DNA of 64,000 nucleotides, taken from assembly GCF_003019035.1 (NCBI RefSeq), contig NZ_CP027447.1, one strand, 5' to 3'. The notes beneath the pieces are model-generated. The model had not been told where the DNA came from and did no database searches. It was given only the letters and a program-made list of their open reading frames with translations. A program made the position numbers and the translations under genes. Origin of the DNA: Escherichia coli. Its GTDB lineage: Bacteria > Pseudomonadota > Gammaproteobacteria > Enterobacterales > Enterobacteriaceae. Below are positions 2,523-59,395 of this stretch, one piece after another (the stretch's first letter is position 1; each line of letters begins with the position of its first letter).

Positions 2523-3386
<864 letters not shown>

Positions 3387-3408
3387 TCTTTTTTGCTTGA
3401 AAAATAAA

Positions 3409-3438
3409 GTCTTAGCGTTCTGCGTTAAGACTTTTTTC
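3409..3438 (+). terminator. rho-independent terminator downstream of kdsA
   Basis: 9-bp stem GTCTTAGCG/CGTTAAGAC (one G-U) with 5-nt loop followed by TTTTTT. Confidence 0.7.
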
Positions 3439-3452
3439 ATGGGTGCCGGATA

Positions 3453-3485
3453 CAAAAAAGGCCGCAGGCTATTACCCCTGCGGCC
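3453..3485 (-). terminator. rho-independent terminator of ldr mRNA
   Basis: Perfect 8-9 bp stem GGCCGCAGG/CCTGCGGCC followed on the minus strand by a T-run (A-run 3453-3459 on plus); lies ~50 nt downstream of the ldr stop. Confidence 0.65.
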
Positions 3486-3534
3486 GGTTTCGGGCGCATA
3501 TTGCCATCACGGCAGCCTGACGCCCGTTTTCACC

Positions 3535-3642
3535 TTACTTCCGGTTACGCCACCAGCTGACAATCGCTGCGGTAATAATTCCCGCCAGGATCGGTGCTGC
3601 CAGGTCGTACCAGAAAGTCATGGCAAACTGCGTGAGCGTCAT
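3535..3642 (-). CDS. ldr: Ldr-family type I toxin peptide (35 aa)
   Basis: Hand translation of minus strand: MTLTQFAMTFWYDLAAPILAGIITAAIVSWWRNRK*; matches the LdrA/B/C small hydrophobic toxin; located between kdsA and chaA where ldr/rdl copies reside in E. coli; not in ORF track because under 60 aa. Confidence 0.85.
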   Translation of the reverse strand: MTLTQFAMTFWYDLAAPILAGIITAAIVSWWRNRK

Positions 3643-3689
3643 ATAGCCGCCTTGTTGTAATGACAACATTTTGCGGCTATTCTTGAATT

Positions 3690-3758
3690 GTTCTGGTTCA
3701 AGATTAGCCCCCGTTCTGTTGTCAGGTTGTACCTCTCAACGTGCGGGGGTTTTCTCTT
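3690..3758 (+). ncRNA. rdl: putative Rdl antisense RNA of the ldr locus (boundaries approximate)
   Basis: Plus-strand hairpin CCCCCG...CGGGGG followed by TTTTCTCTTTCC at about 3708-3760, antisense to the ldr 5' leader; position and size consistent with known ~66-nt Rdl RNAs; 5' end not determined. Confidence 0.4.
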
Positions 3759-4046
3759 TCCAGCAACCAATGCCACCAGGGATAAAGCCCCCGCAACATT
3801 GCGCCTCACCGGATAACTCCGGCTTGGTGTGGATACTACGTCTCAATTCATCTTCACTTCATCCCTGAAATGTTTGCAATGAAGAGTACATTCCGGCTTT
3901 TCAACAGCTGTTGCAGTGGTTTCGTGCAGGTTGTGGTACAGGCTCGCAATTCTGATTAACGACCTGTTCAGGTAGTATGAAGAAATACAATAAGCAGGAA
4001 TTTATATTATCTCCCCCGATTTTCGTCATCGGAGGAGATATAACTG

Positions 4047-5147
4047 TCAGGCAAATATCGTCATCAAATAGGCGGCAAACAGTGCCAGATGCGCTGCGCC
4101 ATTGAGCACGTTAGTACGTCCGGTGGAGAAGGAGATATGGCACAGCACTAAAGAGGCCACCATCACCACCATTTCTGGCGCACCAAGTGCAAACTGCAAT
4201 TCGTTACCCGTCATAAAGGCAATTAGCGTGACGACAGGTACGGTAAGCGAAATGGTTGCTAACACTGAACCAAAGAACAGATTCATCGCGCGCTGGACCT
4301 GGTTGTTCAACACTGCTTTTAACGCACCTAAACCTTCCGGCGACAGAATCAACAGAGCCACCAGGAAGCCAGTAAAGGCGACAGGGGCATTCATGCTGTC
4401 GAGCAATGTCTCCAGCGGGCTGGCGTTCATTTTGGTGACTGCAATAACGGCAATCAGATGGATAATCAACCAGATAGCATGCCACAGGCTGCTATGGGCA
4501 GACGGTTTACCGTGGTGCGGGTCGTCATCATCACTGTCATCTTCGTGCTCGTAGACAAACAAACTTTGATGCGTTTTGGTCTGGATCAGCAAAAATACGC
4601 CATACATTGCCGCAGAAATTAATGCTACCAGTAACGCCTGACCGGTTGAAAAATTCGCCGCAGGCAGAGCCATTGGAAATACCAGTACGATTATCGCCAG
4701 GGGGAACAGCGCAATTAAATACTGCTTGATACCAAACAGATTCATATATTGGGTGGCAAACTTGCGTCCGCCCAACAATAATGAAAAGCCAACCAGCCCA
4801 CCGGTAACAATCATAATGATTGAATAGAGCGTATCACGCATTAGCGTTGGCGCGGCGTCGCCGGTTGCCATTAAAGCTGAAATCAAACTGACTTCAAGAA
4901 TAACCACTGAAAGGCTAAGAATAAGCGAACCGTAAGGTTCTCCCAGGCGATGGGCTAATACGTCCGCATGACGGACAACACTAAAGGCGCTACTTAAAAT
5001 ACCAATAAGAGCAAGAAGATTGATGGCAATGACCACTGGTAGTGTCTGGCTGCTTCCCCACAGGAACAGCACTACCAGCGCCAGAACCGGGAAAATAAGC
5101 GAAGTCTCCTTGTGGCGGGTTTTTACCGCCTCTTGAGCATTTGACAT
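4047..5147 (-). CDS. chaA: Na+(K+)/H+ / Ca2+/H+ antiporter ChaA
   Basis: ORF track 4047..5234 trimmed to ATG at 5147 (MSNAQEAVKTRHKETSLIFPVLALVVLFLWG...), giving 366 aa; polytopic membrane protein with acidic DDSDDDD loop. Confidence 0.93.
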   Translation of the reverse strand: MSNAQEAVKTRHKETSLIFPVLALVVLFLWGSSQTLPVVIAINLLALIGILSSAFSVVRHADVLAHRLGEPYGSLILSLSVVILEVSLISALMATGDAAPTLMRDTLYSIIMIVTGGLVGFSLLLGGRKFATQYMNLFGIKQYLIALFPLAIIVLVFPMALPAANFSTGQALLVALISAAMYGVFLLIQTKTHQSLFVYEHEDDSDDDDPHHGKPSAHSSLWHAIWLIIHLIAVIAVTKMNASPLETLLDSMNAPVAFTGFLVALLILSPEGLGALKAVLNNQVQRAMNLFFGSVLATISLTVPVVTLIAFMTGNELQFALGAPEMVVMVASLVLCHISFSTGRTNVLNGAAHLALFAAYLMTIFA

Positions 5148-19884: not shown

Positions 19885-19969
<85 letters not shown>

Positions 19970-20002: not shown

Positions 20003-20087
<85 letters not shown>

Positions 20088-20138
20088 CACGGGGTAATGC
20101 TTTTTACTGGCCTGCTCCCTTATCGGGAAGCGGGGCGC

Positions 20139-30712: not shown

Positions 30713-31449
30713 TTCCTTTCAAATGAAACGGAGCTGTCATGCTCCGTTTACTTCGTCATTATTTTTACTTTGTTCCCGCGCAGTTATCAAAAGCAAAAGG
30801 AATGGGTGAAAATATTCTTCTCAAATTACAGTTGGTTATAAGGATTTCCTTAACTGCTTCTCCTCACCATCATGTTATTTTCGCCACATCATAATCCTGG
30901 GCTTGCTGAAGAATAATTGAAATGATATTAGTAATTCCACTGCCTTTGGTAGAGGAAAGTGCTAAATAATAATCAATTGTTAAATTATTGTGCATTTCAC
31001 TACTGGAACTGTAATCAGAAAAGAGAGACATGCTTAACCAATCTCTATTTAATTGAATTAAAAGATGTTTGTTAAGACATGGATGCAAGCTATAGATTCT
31101 GATACGGTCAATAAAAGAGAATTGCTTAACAATTTTGCAAAATGTATTGGCGAGTAAGAACCGCATTTGGTACTTTCCGGGCAACCGCCAGACGATTCTT
31201 TATTGGTAATGAGAATAATTAACAATTAAAGAGCGTCGCGAAAGAATAATGTGTCTCGACAGGGGAGACACAGTACGAATCGACATAAGGTGATCGTCTG
31301 AATCACCAGAATAAATAAAGTCGGTGATAGTAATACGTAACGATAAAGTAACCTGACAGCAGAAAGTCTCCGAGCCTGTGCAGGGTCCCAATCCGGGATT
31401 ACACATGCTGGTTAATACCAGTAATTATAATGAGGGAGTCCAAAAAACA

Positions 31450-43931: not shown

Positions 43932-44125
43932 GCACTCTCCTTGAGTTTTATGCAGGTGTTAATTAGCGGGCAATTGTACCCTGGTTAAGCCTCGGGTGGC
44001 AGCATCAGGTCTTGTATGGAAAAGCATATCTTTGTAAAGCGGAGGTAATAGCTGGCCTTCAGGCGTGGGCAAACCGCGGCAAGTGGCGAGCGAGTTAATA
44101 TTTGCGTAGCGAAAATATTTAAAAA

Positions 44126-45537: not shown

Positions 45538-45934
45538 TCAGGCTTTATTTTCGGCTTTCTTATTTACGTTATTAAGGGCCAGATCAGTCAGTTTGATGTC
45601 GGTGGCCTTTTCTTCTTCAAGAGTTTCTTTCAGAAGCTTAGCTGCTTTACGGTAACCTAATTGTTCAGCCAGCGTCGCTAATGTCCCGTAACTGGCAATC
45701 TCATAATGCTCGACTTTCTGTGCTGCGGCAATCAGTGCGACATCACGCACTTCGTTTTTCTCGGTACTTTCGATGACCTCATTAGCTTCTTCAATAAGAC
45801 CTTCCATTGCCACACAATTTTTCGTTTGATGTTGCTCTTGCGAGTTTTGCCAGTGCACGGGTTAATTGTTTTTCTGCACTGTAGGTATCTGAAAGCAGGT
45901 GAATAAATACATCTTCAATGGTCTTCATATTCAT
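45538..45934 (-). pseudogene. yciF: yciF (DUF892 paralog of yciE) apparently disrupted by a frameshifting internal deletion
   Basis: N-terminal segment [40 protein letters not shown] (start 45934) runs into stop after CGNGRSY; C-terminal segment ...[43 protein letters not shown]... continues in the +1 frame to 45538; joined product ~30 residues shorter than paralog YciE across the same aligned region. Confidence 0.6.
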
Positions 45935-53131: not shown

Positions 53132-53159
53132 AAAAAAAAGCCCGCTCATTAGGCGGGCT
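53132..53159 (-). terminator. trp attenuator (3:4 terminator hairpin plus U-run)
   Basis: Minus-strand AGCCCGCCTAATGAGCGGGCTTTTTTTT between trpL and trpE. Confidence 0.9.
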
Positions 53160-53201
53160 GGGTATCTGATTGCTTTACGCATGGTGAATACACTGCCCGT
53201 T

Positions 53202-53246
53202 TCAGGAAGTGCGCCACCAACCTTTCAGTACGAAAATTGCTTTCAT
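53202..53246 (-). CDS. trpL: trp operon leader peptide
   Basis: Minus-strand ATGAAAGCAATTTTCGTACTGAAAGGTTGGTGGCGCACTTCCTGA encodes [14 protein letters not shown] with tandem Trp codons. Confidence 0.95.
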
Positions 53247-58054: not shown

Positions 58055-59077
58055 ATGATTAGATATAGTGGAATATTTCTATCGCTGTTAATGCTTTCAG
58101 GTTGTGCAACCGAAGCATTGAAGAATGAACAAGCTGAAACTGTTATTACTGCGGGTAACAAGGCGGTTGCGGCGAATGCAAGTTTCTTTAAACAATACTA
58201 TGCTTCTCGTGAAAATTTCCTTGTTAATTTTTATGCGACTAATCCGGATTGTGCATTGCGACCTGATTATGAAACGATTATGGAAAATAATACTAATAAA
58301 GAGTCCTTATGTATGCAATCAGAGAAAGGGGACAAAACATCGTATAAAGACGTTACTAAAGTTCAATTGGCAACAACAGAAAAACAAAAGCTACTGGCTT
58401 CACTTGAGGTCGTTAACAGTATGAGCTCCTATGTGGAGTTGTTGACGGTGGATATGGATGTTGACGATAGTAAACAAATTATATTACTTAATCAGGCGCT
58501 CGATCATGCAAACAACGCCCAAAAACTACTTGGACTTTCAGAAGGTGAAGAACTGACTAAGTCAGCTGTAGCTGTTAAAGATTTAGTTCAATATTTCAAT
58601 GGATTATATAAAGAGAAGATTAAATCAGAAAATGTTGGTAAAACGGTAGGTAGTGACTGGCCACGACTTCAAAGAAATTTACAAGATTTACTTGAAGATA
58701 TAGCAACGAAACAGCAGCAAATGGATCGGAATAATTTTGCGAACATCAGTAATAATTTTTATTACTATAATAAGGCCCGGGAAAATACTAAAAATATAGA
58801 ATTTAAGACATTAAAGAGCAGGCAGGAATTTTTGAGTGCAGTAATTAATCTTAATGAAAGCAGATTGCGTTCATCTGATCCGGCGGCTCCAGCAATACAA
58901 GCTATTAATGCCTTCATGGATAAAGGAAATCATCTACAAGATTTATACTCTAATAAATCTCTTTCAAAAGCGGATTTAGAGCGTAGGAATGAGATCCTGC
59001 GTGCTCAAGTTATTAGTGGTCTTCAGGCGTCAGAGGAGCTGGCAAAACTTCTTATTGCCAGCGGAGTTATGTTATAG
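58055..59077 (+). CDS. predicted lipoprotein of unknown function (340 aa)
   Basis: ATG preceded by AAGAGGTG RBS; N-terminus MIRYSGIFLSLLMLSGC has a signal peptide with LSGC lipobox (Ala at +2, not Asp); remainder Asn/Lys/Gln/Glu-rich, likely helical; no family recognisable by eye. Confidence 0.7.
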   Translation: MIRYSGIFLSLLMLSGCATEALKNEQAETVITAGNKAVAANASFFKQYYASRENFLVNFYATNPDCALRPDYETIMENNTNKESLCMQSEKGDKTSYKDVTKVQLATTEKQKLLASLEVVNSMSSYVELLTVDMDVDDSKQIILLNQALDHANNAQKLLGLSEGEELTKSAVAVKDLVQYFNGLYKEKIKSENVGKTVGSDWPRLQRNLQDLLEDIATKQQQMDRNNFANISNNFYYYNKARENTKNIEFKTLKSRQEFLSAVINLNESRLRSSDPAAPAIQAINAFMDKGNHLQDLYSNKSLSKADLERRNEILRAQVISGLQASEELAKLLIASGVML

Positions 59078-59086
59078 GAGGTCATT

Positions 59087-59395
59087 ATGAACGATGTGCA
59101 AAATCGACGAATACTGGCATTGCTCAATATGCTGTACTATGCCTTAGGAAACCGAACAACTTGCGATATATGTCACAAATATTTTATTCTGGTTTTGTCG
59201 GTAATGAATAATCTGACAATTAATTATGGCTCGCAAACGTCACCAGAACTGACTGGTATTAGTTATGAAGATGCTAATGATTTGATCACTGAATTAATAC
59301 TGTTTATTGAAGACGTCAATGCGGATAATGACATGGAATATCCCGCACACTTGAATAAAATTCAAGCTCTTCTTAATTTTGCCGTGGCTAATTAA
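59087..59395 (+). CDS. small acidic cytoplasmic protein of unknown function (102 aa)
   Basis: ATG 5 nt after AGGAGG RBS that overlaps the stop of the preceding lipoprotein gene (translational coupling); no signal peptide; CDICH motif and acidic C-terminal half. Confidence 0.65.
   Translation: MNDVQNRRILALLNMLYYALGNRTTCDICHKYFILVLSVMNNLTINYGSQTSPELTGISYEDANDLITELILFIEDVNADNDMEYPAHLNKIQALLNFAVAN

What the first reader, a model, noticed from the sequence alone, without database searches (positions are those of the whole stretch)
3453..3870. Single-copy ldr/rdl type I toxin-antitoxin locus between kdsA and chaA
A 35-aa Ldr toxin ORF (MTLTQFAMTFWYDLAAPILAGIITAAIVSWWRNRK) is encoded on the minus strand with its own terminator, and a plus-strand hairpin plus U-run antisense to its leader fits the Rdl antisense RNA. 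E. coli K-12 carries three tandem ldr/rdl repeats at this position (ldrABC, from memory); here the kdsA-chaA interval is only ~660 bp and holds one unit. The toxin is missing from the ORF track because it is under 60 aa, so it is easy to overlook.
Basis: partly seen in the sequence, partly recalled or inferred. Interest (0 to 1): 0.4.

Follow-up and report, generated by a model that had tools for sequence, protein, structure and literature searches.

The report
Single-copy ldr/rdl toxin-antitoxin locus
This is an ordinary, already well-known E. coli toxin-antitoxin module: a 35-residue Ldr membrane toxin gene with its Rdl antisense RNA, present here as one copy where strain K-12 has three, a state shared by about a quarter of complete E. 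coli genomes.

Summary

**Identification**
- Window 3535-3642 (-) encodes a 35-aa peptide that matches Pfam Ldr_toxin (83 bits, cut-off 27).
- Window 3690-3755 (+) matches Rfam rdlD full length (86 bits, cut-off 50). It is 100% identical to K-12 rdlA.
- A hairpin plus T-run terminator ends the ldr transcript at 3453-3485 (-).

**Copy number**
- The kdsA-chaA spacer is 660 bp. K-12 has 1729 bp with ldrABC/rdlABC, so the window holds exactly one long-direct-repeat (LDR) unit.
- This is common. About 1,324 of 5,426 complete E. coli genomes (24%) have one copy, about 1,500 have two, and about 2,600 have three or more.
- The ~65-bp inter-unit junction of K-12 is absent here but present in two-copy arrays of two other Escherichia species. 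The single copy is therefore probably a recombinational collapse.

**Beyond the finding**
- The 3' UTR is strongly complementary to the ldr ribosome-binding site and start codon (-39.8 kcal/mol; 0 of 1000 shuffles as good). This pairing is kept in 13 units from 5 species.
- A leader reading frame that starts inside the Rdl target stays open up to the ldr start in all 13 units.
- Both fit the published but unproven hok/sok-like model.

The peptide differs from LdrA at A4T, I9T and H12Y, and its toxicity is untested. Interest is low.

The parts
3535..3642 (-). ldr toxin CDS, 35 aa plus stop (MTLTQFAMTFWYDLAAPILAGIITAAIVSWWRNRK). LdrA-type allele with A4T, I9T and H12Y relative to K-12 LdrA.
   Evidence: ORF read. 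Pfam PF13940 at 83.2 bits. Annotated as an Ldr family toxin, WP_096986794.1, in the identical SCU-301 record. The exact peptide is on 129 contigs in the public protein collection. PDB 5LBJ LdrD matches at E 2.8e-9.
3690..3755 (+). rdl antisense RNA (antitoxin), 66 nt: a single-stranded 5' tail followed by a long terminator hairpin and a U-run.
   Evidence: Rfam RF01813 at 86.3 bits, full length. Fold -26.7 kcal/mol, z -4.55. Identical to K-12 rdlA in the alignments. The K-12 rdlA annotation maps to window 3690-3756.
3453..3485 (-). Intrinsic terminator of the ldr mRNA: stem 3485-3460, T-run 3459-3454.
   Evidence: Terminator scan. Fold -23.2 kcal/mol, z -4.2. Conserved in all 13 units compared.
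3453..3828 (-). Predicted ldr mRNA, about 376 nt, with a 186-nt 5' leader. The 5' end is inferred, not mapped.
   Evidence: The 5' end is placed about 5-8 nt downstream of the conserved TAGTAT/TAGAAT hexamer. The whole-transcript fold is -168.3 kcal/mol, z -7.3.
3833..3838 (-). Putative -10 hexamer of the ldr promoter (TAGTAT). No convincing -35.
   Evidence: Read from the sequence. CGTAG-ATC is conserved between LDR-A/B/C and LDR-D. The consensus promoter scan found nothing here, so this is inferred.
3655..3683 (+). Putative rdl promoter: -35 TTGTAA at 3655-3660, a 17-nt spacer, and -10 TATTCT at 3678-3683, 7 nt before the rdl 5' end.
   Evidence: Read from the sequence. It matches 8 of 12 consensus positions, which is below the scan threshold. 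The region is identical to K-12 LDR-A. Inferred.
3639..3712 (-). Candidate leader ORF (ldrX-like). An SD-like GGGGG at 3712-3708 is followed after 6 nt by TTG at 3701-3699. Twenty codons then run to a TGA at 3641-3639 that overlaps the ldr ATG (ATGA). The SD-like run and the start codon both lie inside the Rdl-complementary stretch.
   Evidence: The frame is open from the invariant GGGGG-N6-TTG to the ldr start in all 13 units. It ends at ATGA in 5 units and is in-frame with ldr in 8. Translation has not been shown.
3493..3525 (-). 3' UTR fold-back element. It is predicted to pair with the ldr ribosome-binding site and AUG region (3634-3669) and with a 5' leader element (3801-3805).
   Evidence: MFE fold of the whole mRNA. 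An independent RNAalifold consensus gives the same helices. 97% of cells are paired across 13 units, with one compensatory change. Duplex energy is -39.8 kcal/mol against -18.5 +/- 3.2 for 1000 shuffles, none as good.
3634..3669 (-). ldr translation initiation region (SD-like AAGGCGG plus AUG), the predicted partner of the 3' UTR element.
3452..3923 (.). The stretch homologous to all three K-12 LDR units, that is, one LDR repeat unit without the ~65-bp inter-unit junction.
   Evidence: BLAST of the spacer against the K-12 spacer. Identity to K-12 unit A is 98.1%, to B 97.6% and to C 97.4%. The junction is absent from the window.
3722..3799 (-). A 25-aa leader ORF (MLRGLYPWWHWLLERENPRTLRGTT) behind GGTGAGG. 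It was considered as a regulatory ORF and is probably not one.
   Evidence: Present in 11 of 13 units, but frameshifted in K-12 LDR-C and with ACG in place of ATG in Citrobacter sedlakii. It ends 80 nt before the ldr AUG.
2532..3386 (+). kdsA, the left flank. Its own terminator hairpin is at 3406-3434, followed by a T-run.
   Evidence: Pfam DAHP_synth_1. RefSeq annotation. Hairpin fold -14.9 kcal/mol, z -5.4.
4047..5147 (-). chaA, the right flank.
   Evidence: Pfam Na_Ca_ex. RefSeq annotation.

Best explanation
The locus is one intact copy of the chromosomal Ldr/Rdl type I toxin-antitoxin module (LDR-A/B/C type) of Escherichia coli, sitting between kdsA and chaA.

**Components**
- The minus strand gives a roughly 376-nt, highly structured ldr mRNA. 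It has a 186-nt leader, a 35-codon ORF for a small inner-membrane toxin, and its own terminator.
- The plus strand gives the 66-nt Rdl RNA. It is perfectly complementary to leader nucleotides 74-139 of the ldr mRNA and does not overlap the ldr ribosome-binding site.

**Known from K-12 (literature)**
- Overproduced LdrD and LdrA arrest or kill cells. Reported effects are nucleoid condensation, an ATP drop and membrane damage.
- RdlD prevents LdrD toxicity at the level of translation.

**Inferred here, by near-identity (rdl 100%, transcript 5 differences from K-12 LDR-A)**
- The same holds for this unit.

**Predicted here: how translation is kept off**
1. The 3' UTR folds back onto the ldr SD/AUG, like the fbi element of hok mRNA, so the full-length mRNA is translationally inert.
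2. ldr translation depends on ribosomes that arrive through a short leader frame. That frame's SD-like GGGGG and TTG start lie inside the Rdl target and it ends at, or runs into, the ldr AUG. This corresponds to the 'ldrX' idea of Gerdes and Wagner.
3. Rdl pairing blocks that leader frame.

**Copy number**
The single-copy state is one allele of a common copy-number polymorphism (1, 2 or 3 or more units). It was most likely produced by homologous recombination between units of an older array.
For: **Family identity.** Pfam Ldr_toxin 83 bits. Rfam rdlD 86 bits, full length.

**Synteny and one unit.** The flanks are kdsA and chaA, and the unit count against K-12 ldrABC/rdlABC is exactly one. rdl is identical to K-12 rdlA, and the transcript differs from K-12 LDR-A at 5 positions. 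The terminators are present.

**Literature.** Toxicity of LdrD and LdrA and repression by RdlD are reported, with the mechanism described as 'thought to act like hok/sok' but unproven (PMC4147584, PMC8309996, PMC7472228, PMC8167048).

**Fold-back.** It appears in the MFE fold and in the consensus fold of 13 units from E. coli, E. whittamii, Escherichia sp. E1V33 and Citrobacter sedlakii. 97% of cells are paired and there is one compensatory A-U to G-C change. The duplex is -39.8 kcal/mol against -18.5 +/- 3.2, with 0 of 1000 shuffles as good. The UTR segments are nearly invariant between LDR-A and LDR-D, while the ORF between them has diverged.

**Leader frame.** It is open in 13 of 13 units despite four different indel states.

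**Copy-number census.** 1,324 genomes have a place covering at least 80% of a 960-bp single-copy query. 2,823 genomes do so for an 1860-bp query that also joins two-copy loci.

**Junction.** The junction segment is absent here but shared by the two-copy arrays of E. whittamii and Escherichia sp. E1V33. A K-12 substrain, GM4792, shows a single-copy spacer.
Against: - No expression data exist for this strain. The ldr promoter is recognisable only by a conserved -10, and the consensus scan found no promoter on either strand.
- The peptide carries three non-synonymous and no synonymous differences from K-12 LdrA. One is H12Y, in the FWHD motif that is invariant in the other 12 units, so toxicity of this allele is not guaranteed.
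- The fold-back helices are almost invariant. Covariation is therefore not significant against the shuffle controls (covariation score reached by 90 of 500 shuffles).
- The leader frame has only a TTG start. Two of the three frames are open in that segment anyway, so its conservation is weak evidence.
- I could not read Kawano 2002, Kawano 2012 or Gerdes and Wagner 2007. I therefore cannot say whether my leader frame equals their ldrX, or whether the fold-back has already been described.
- Pseudocitrobacter has a single unit at this locus, so 'single copy is ancestral' is not excluded.
Confidence: 0.93

Rival explanations
1. The single copy is an assembly artefact. The strain really carries two or three 535-bp tandem units that were collapsed into one during assembly.
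For: Units are 97-98% identical to one another, which short reads cannot resolve. The only record identical to the window is a single assembly, SCU-301, and I do not know its sequencing technology.
Against: 1,324 complete genomes show the same single-copy structure, and systematic samples of the ranking agree: 14 of 60 rows are single-piece with full coverage. One- and two-copy arrays are also seen in other species' assemblies. The window sequence has private substitutions (A4T, H12Y) and no sign of a mixed consensus.
Confidence: 0.05
2. The locus is a decaying or attenuated remnant. The RNA elements are intact, but the T4/T9/Y12 peptide is no longer toxic, so the module is functionally inert.
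For: The ORF has three non-synonymous and no synonymous differences from K-12 ldrA. H12 is invariant in the other 12 units. The N-terminal part is reported to matter for LdrA toxicity (PMC8309996). Truncated Ldr ORFs exist in relatives, such as the 30-aa product in Pseudocitrobacter.
Against: The ORF is full length, with the PxxxG motif, the tryptophans and the RNRK tail. The Pfam score is far above the cut-off. The exact allele recurs on 129 contigs. T9 is the normal LdrB residue. rdl, the terminator and the leader are all intact.
Confidence: 0.1
3. The real product is the 44-aa ORF that starts at the upstream in-frame ATG (3669-3667; MLSLQQGGYMTLTQ...), or one of the longer forms of 55 aa and above found in some database entries. 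On this view the 35-aa peptide is not the product.
For: the ORF listing reports the 44-aa form. Databases hold 41-77-aa versions of the same gene.
Against: The upstream ATG is ACG in LDR-D-type units and out of frame in E. whittamii units. It has no SD and sits in the stem predicted to pair with the 3' UTR. The Pfam model and the solved LdrD peptide are both 35 aa.
Confidence: 0.03
4. It is a hok/sok-family locus rather than ldr/rdl.
For: The Rfam sok model gives a sub-threshold match on the ldr leader: 31.4 bits, E 3.8e-5. T1TAdb notes that some Ldr loci are called Hok/Sok by their RNA features (PMC8594479).
Against: The sok score is far below its gathering score of 59. The peptide matches only Ldr_toxin. 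rdlD is the best RNA match, far above its threshold.
Confidence: 0.01

Closest known systems
E. coli K-12 ldrA/rdlA, with ldrB/rdlB and ldrC/rdlC: the LDR-A/B/C array between kdsA and chaA
   Same: Same chromosomal position and same orientation. rdl is 100% identical to rdlA. The repeat unit is 98.1% identical to unit A, with the same terminator, leader and 3' UTR.
   Different: There is one unit, not three, and the ~65-bp inter-unit junction is absent. The peptide differs from LdrA at A4T, I9T (the LdrB residue) and H12Y.
E. coli K-12 ldrD/rdlD (between bcsG and yhjV), the experimentally characterised member
   Same: Same architecture. The leader, the Rdl target, the SD/AUG region and the 3' UTR element are almost invariant. 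Both peptides are 35 aa, and PDB 5LBJ matches at E 2.8e-9.
   Different: Different locus. The coding sequence is much more diverged. A 1-nt indel puts the leader frame in-frame with ldrD, whereas here it ends at an ATGA overlap.
hok/mok/sok of plasmid R1 and its chromosomal homologues
   Same: It works alike. A stable, structured toxin mRNA has a long leader. A short unstable antisense RNA targets the leader and not the toxin SD. A leader frame is proposed to deliver ribosomes to the toxin start. Here a 3' fold-back occluding translation initiation is also predicted.
   Different: It is not a member. The peptide is not Hok, and the Rfam sok model scores only 31 bits against a gathering score of 59. 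In ldr the 3' element is predicted to pair directly with the toxin's own SD/AUG. No 3' processing step is known to me.
Fst/RNAII (par of pAD1) and the wider Fst/Ldr toxin superfamily
   Same: The toxin has the superfamily signature: a hydrophobic helix with PxxxG (P17-G21), tryptophan after the helix, and a charged C-terminus (PMC2887945, PMC7472228).
   Different: In Fst-type loci the antisense RNA overlaps the 3' end of the toxin mRNA. Here it overlaps the 5' leader.

Membership tests
Ldr/Rdl type I toxin-antitoxin (LDR) family | A toxin peptide of about 35 aa that matches the Ldr toxin profile | tested here: met
   Pfam PF13940 at 83.2 bits (cut-off 27), covering 35 of 35 positions.
Ldr/Rdl type I toxin-antitoxin (LDR) family | Superfamily signature: a transmembrane helix with PxxxG, a conserved Trp after the helix, and a basic C-terminal cluster | tested here: met
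   The sequence shows P17-ILA-G21, W29-W30 and RNRK. The features are as defined in PMC2887945 and PMC7472228.
Ldr/Rdl type I toxin-antitoxin (LDR) family | A cis-encoded ~66-nt antisense RNA of the rdl family | tested here: met
   Rfam RF01813 at 86.3 bits (gathering 50), model positions 1-66. Identical to K-12 rdlA.
Ldr/Rdl type I toxin-antitoxin (LDR) family | The antisense RNA lies within the 5' leader of the toxin mRNA, upstream of the ORF and not overlapping it | tested here: met
   rdl is at 3690-3755 and the ldr AUG at 3642, leaving a 47-nt gap. This is the family layout given in PMC8594479.
Ldr/Rdl type I toxin-antitoxin (LDR) family | Own promoter and terminator giving a long, stable toxin mRNA | tested here: inconclusive
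   The terminator is clear and the transcript is predicted to be very structured (z -7.3). The promoter is only a conserved -10, and the consensus scan was negative. Stability cannot be tested with these tools.
Ldr/Rdl type I toxin-antitoxin (LDR) family | The peptide is toxic on overproduction and Rdl represses it | not testable with these tools
   Known for LdrD/RdlD and LdrA in K-12. This allele (T4, T9, Y12) has not been tested.
LDR-A/B/C locus (kdsA-chaA) | Located between kdsA and chaA, with ldr on the chaA strand | tested here: met
LDR-A/B/C locus (kdsA-chaA) | A tandem array of three 535-bp units, as in K-12 | tested here: not met
   One unit in a 660-bp spacer. This is a common allele: 1,324 of 5,426 genomes.
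Hok/Sok | A Hok-family peptide and a sok RNA above threshold | tested here: not met
   sok RF01794 scores 31.4 bits against a gathering score of 59. There is no Hok Pfam match.

The most novel reading that the evidence does not exclude
The unsettled question of how Rdl controls Ldr might be answerable from features visible here.

- A conserved 3' UTR element (3493-3525) is predicted to fold back onto the ldr SD/AUG (3634-3669) and onto a 5' leader element. This is a hok-fbi-like lock acting directly on the toxin's own initiation site.
- A short leader frame starts at GGGGG-N6-TTG inside the Rdl target. It stays open to the ldr AUG in all 13 units compared, across four indel states.

If neither feature has been described or tested, a naturally single-copy strain such as this one would be the clean genetic background for testing them. 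I could not read the primary papers, so the features may already be in print.
Probability: 0.25. Interest if true: 0.3.

Novelty: already known. Interest (0 to 1): 0.1.

Why it matters
It matters little beyond correct annotation. The locus is a textbook chromosomal type I toxin-antitoxin module.

Practical points:
- rdl is not annotated in the RefSeq record of the identical strain.
- Copy number at kdsA-chaA is a frequent polymorphism: about 24% of genomes have one unit, 28% two and 48% three or more. That is relevant to anyone who deletes 'all ldr genes' or interprets read depth here.
- A single-copy strain avoids the redundancy that complicates genetics in K-12.
- The conserved 3' UTR to start-site complementarity and the always-open leader frame give concrete, cheap mutational tests of the still-unproven hok-like model for Rdl action.

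Tried and rejected
1. **Consensus promoter scan of 3380-4060.** It found no promoter on either strand. The promoters are therefore inferred only from conserved hexamers.

2. **ORF in the frame that ends at ATGA on the ldr start.** This is the 56-aa form from GTG 3809. I first took it to be the coupling ORF, but it is interrupted in K-12 LDR-B and LDR-C and absent as such in LDR-D-type units. The analysis was then redone from the invariant TTG.

3. **The 25-aa ORF at 3722-3799.** Rejected as a conserved coding element: it is frameshifted in K-12 LDR-C and has ACG in place of ATG in C. sedlakii.

4. **Covariation test of the fold-back.** Too little variation to reach significance.

5. **Attempt to obtain divergent Ldr loci for covariation.** With the 44-aa ORF it returned only E. 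coli and Shigella LdrA-type clusters.

6. **17-mer scan of one genome per species.** It gave 28 loci. Only 9 loci, from 6 genomes (Escherichia, Citrobacter, Pseudocitrobacter), were real and the rest were chance matches. E. albertii L004 lies at a contig end and gave no Ldr ORF.

7. **Primary literature.** Kawano 2012 could not be fetched by DOI, by a guessed PMC id or by PubMed id. Kawano 2002 and Gerdes and Wagner 2007 are not in the library.

8. **Hok/Sok membership.** Rejected.

9. **Other LDR copies in this genome.** The two further LDR-like places that megablast reports in the SCU-301 genome lie outside the window and were not located.

Full report
**What is there**

The window is E. coli. 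The kdsA-chaA spacer and its flanks are 100% identical to strain SCU-301, NZ_CP051751.1. The window is the reverse complement of record positions 2749366-2813365.
- kdsA (2532-3386, +) and chaA (4047-5147, -) flank a spacer of exactly 660 bp.
- On the minus strand, 3535-3642 encodes MTLTQFAMTFWYDLAAPILAGIITAAIVSWWRNRK. It matches Pfam Ldr_toxin over its whole length at 83.2 bits (cut-off 27) and E 1.3e-23. It also matches the solved LdrD peptide 5LBJ at E 2.8e-9.
- RefSeq annotates this CDS in SCU-301 as an Ldr family toxin.
- Downstream of the ORF, a 9-bp GC-rich stem (3485-3460) and a T-run (3459-3454) form an intrinsic terminator.
- On the plus strand, 3690-3755 matches Rfam rdlD from end to end at 86.3 bits (gathering 50) and E 9.4e-19. 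It folds into the expected tail plus long terminator hairpin (-26.7 kcal/mol, z -4.55).
- It is the only rdl match in the 64-kb window.
- Rdl is antisense to the ldr leader. Its 5' end lies 47 nt upstream of the ldr AUG, so it does not cover the ldr ribosome-binding site.

**Comparison with K-12**

- MG1655 has ldrA/rdlA, ldrB/rdlB and ldrC/rdlC in a 1729-bp kdsA-chaA spacer.
- Window spacer positions 1-531 align to K-12 1-531 (98.1%). Positions 66-660 align to K-12 1136-1729 (97.1%), and 66-537 align to the middle unit. The window therefore holds exactly one unit of the 535-bp repeat.
- The unit is closest to K-12 unit A: 98.1%, against 97.6% for B and 97.4% for C.
- rdl is identical to rdlA. 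The whole predicted transcript differs from K-12 LDR-A at five positions.
- Three of those five are non-synonymous changes in the ORF: A4T, I9T (the LdrB residue) and H12Y. None is synonymous.
- H12 is invariant in the 12 other units I compared.
- The exact peptide is nevertheless on 129 contigs in the public collection, where it is named an Ldr toxin.

**How unusual is one copy?**

- With a 960-bp query (spacer plus 150-bp flanks), only single-copy loci can give one place that covers at least 80% of the query. 1,324 of 5,426 complete E. coli genomes do. These include an O25b:H4-ST131 genome.
- In the systematic sample of 60 rows, 15 had full coverage. Fourteen of those were single pieces and one was interrupted by IS200.
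- With an 1860-bp query the tool also joins two-copy loci, and 2,823 genomes reach 80%.
- This gives roughly 24% with one unit, 28% with two and 48% with three or more.
- Variation in Ldr gene number among strains is already in the literature: Table 1 of PMC2887945 lists 2-10 Ldr/Fst genes in Escherichia and Shigella genomes.

**Origin of the single copy**

- The ~65-bp segment that separates K-12 units has no counterpart in the window.
- That segment is present between the two units of the kdsA-chaA arrays of E. whittamii and Escherichia sp. E1V33.
- Recombination between units of such an array removes the junction and gives exactly the structure seen here.
- A K-12 substrain (GM4792) also shows a single-copy spacer.
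- I therefore favour secondary collapse of an older array. Pseudocitrobacter vendiensis has one unit, with a truncated toxin ORF, at the same locus, so a deeper single-copy ancestor is likely.
- Assembly collapse in this particular genome cannot be excluded with these tools, but nothing points to it.

**How it works**

From the literature:
- Overproduced LdrD and LdrA stop growth or kill cells.
- RdlD blocks LdrD toxicity post-transcriptionally.
- The mechanism is 'thought to act like hok/sok' through a proposed leader ORF, ldrX, but it is unproven (PMC4147584, PMC8309996, PMC8167048, PMC8594479).

I looked at the RNA in 13 units: the window, K-12 A-D, E. coli E69, three E. whittamii units, three Escherichia sp. 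E1V33 units and one Citrobacter sedlakii unit.

1. *Fold-back.*
   - The predicted 376-nt mRNA is unusually structured (-168 kcal/mol, z -7.3).
   - In the MFE fold, 3' UTR nucleotides 304-336 (window 3525-3493) pair with the ldr SD/AUG region, nucleotides 160-195 (window 3669-3634), and with leader nucleotides 24-28.
   - RNAalifold finds the same helices independently.
   - 97% of cells are paired across the 13 units. There is one compensatory A-U to G-C change and several G-U/G-C switches.
   - The duplex is -39.8 kcal/mol, against -18.5 +/- 3.2 for 1000 dinucleotide shuffles, none of which is as good.
   - These UTR segments are nearly invariant between LDR-A-type and LDR-D-type units, although the ORF between them has diverged.
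   - Because the helices hardly vary, covariation is not significant. The fold-back is a prediction.

2. *Leader frame.*
   - An invariant GGGGG-N6-TTG (3712-3699) lies inside the Rdl target.
   - It opens a frame that reaches the ldr start without a stop in all 13 units. It ends at an ATGA overlap in five units, including this one (20 codons, 3701-3639), and is in-frame with ldr in eight, across four indel states.
   - This fits the ldrX idea, but the evidence is weak: the start is TTG, and two of the three frames are open in that segment.

3. *Other leader ORFs.* Two other candidates are not conserved.

A sub-threshold Rfam sok match on the leader (31 bits against a gathering score of 59) echoes the known organisational similarity to hok/sok. 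It is not membership.

**Verdict**

The module is an already known kind in a common allelic state. Interest is low at 0.1. The only mildly new material is the comparative support for a 3' UTR fold-back and an always-open leader frame. I could not check either against the primary papers, which are not in the library.

Noticed in passing
window 58055-59077 (+) and 59087-59395 (+): Two adjacent 'hypothetical protein' genes lie between cobO (btuR) and rluB. One is a 340-aa predicted lipoprotein (signal peptide ending in ...LSGC) and the other a 102-aa protein. Neither has a Pfam or PADLOC match. From memory, K-12 has no genes between btuR and rluB, so this may be a small strain-variable islet.
   Followed up: partly
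window 3690-3755 (+): rdl is not annotated in the RefSeq record of the identical strain SCU-301, although it scores 86 bits against Rfam rdlD. Only the Ldr CDS is annotated.
   Followed up: yes
window 3640-3792 (-): The ldr leader gives a sub-threshold match to the Rfam sok model: 31.4 bits, gathering 59, E 3.8e-5. This agrees with the T1TAdb remark that Ldr/Rdl loci can be classed as Hok/Sok by their RNA features.
   Followed up: partly
window ~45538-45928 (-): A ferritin-like-domain gene between yciG and yciE (yciF position) is annotated as a frameshifted pseudogene in SCU-301.
   Followed up: no
window ~43959-44048 (-): A short fragment of a YkgJ-family cysteine-cluster protein gene is annotated between ompW and yciC. 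It is incomplete and lacks its N-terminus.
   Followed up: no
window 30870-31166 (-): A 98-aa hypothetical protein gene lies between oppA and ychE. It has no Pfam match.
   Followed up: partly
L019 1425-1535 (Pseudocitrobacter vendiensis, kdsA-chaA spacer): This is a single LDR unit with an rdl of 85 bits. Its Ldr ORF is cut short: counted from the start that aligns with E. coli Ldr, 30 residues ending ...IVGW, without the basic tail. It is possibly a decaying toxin beside an intact antitoxin RNA.
   Followed up: partly
L025 5559-5837 (Escherichia sp. E1V33, second unit of the kdsA-chaA array): The Ldr ORF carries D13N in the conserved FWHD motif. It is fused in-frame to a long upstream leader frame, giving a 92-aa ORF.
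   Followed up: no
H76, NZ_CP098210.1 (E. coli Z0117EC0051), kdsA-chaA spacer: A single-copy LDR locus interrupted by an IS200C-family element.
   Followed up: no
window 19888-19969 and 20007-20088 (-); 53132-53225 (-): Expected landmarks: two tandem tRNA-Tyr genes and the trp operon leader. Nothing unusual was seen.
   Followed up: no
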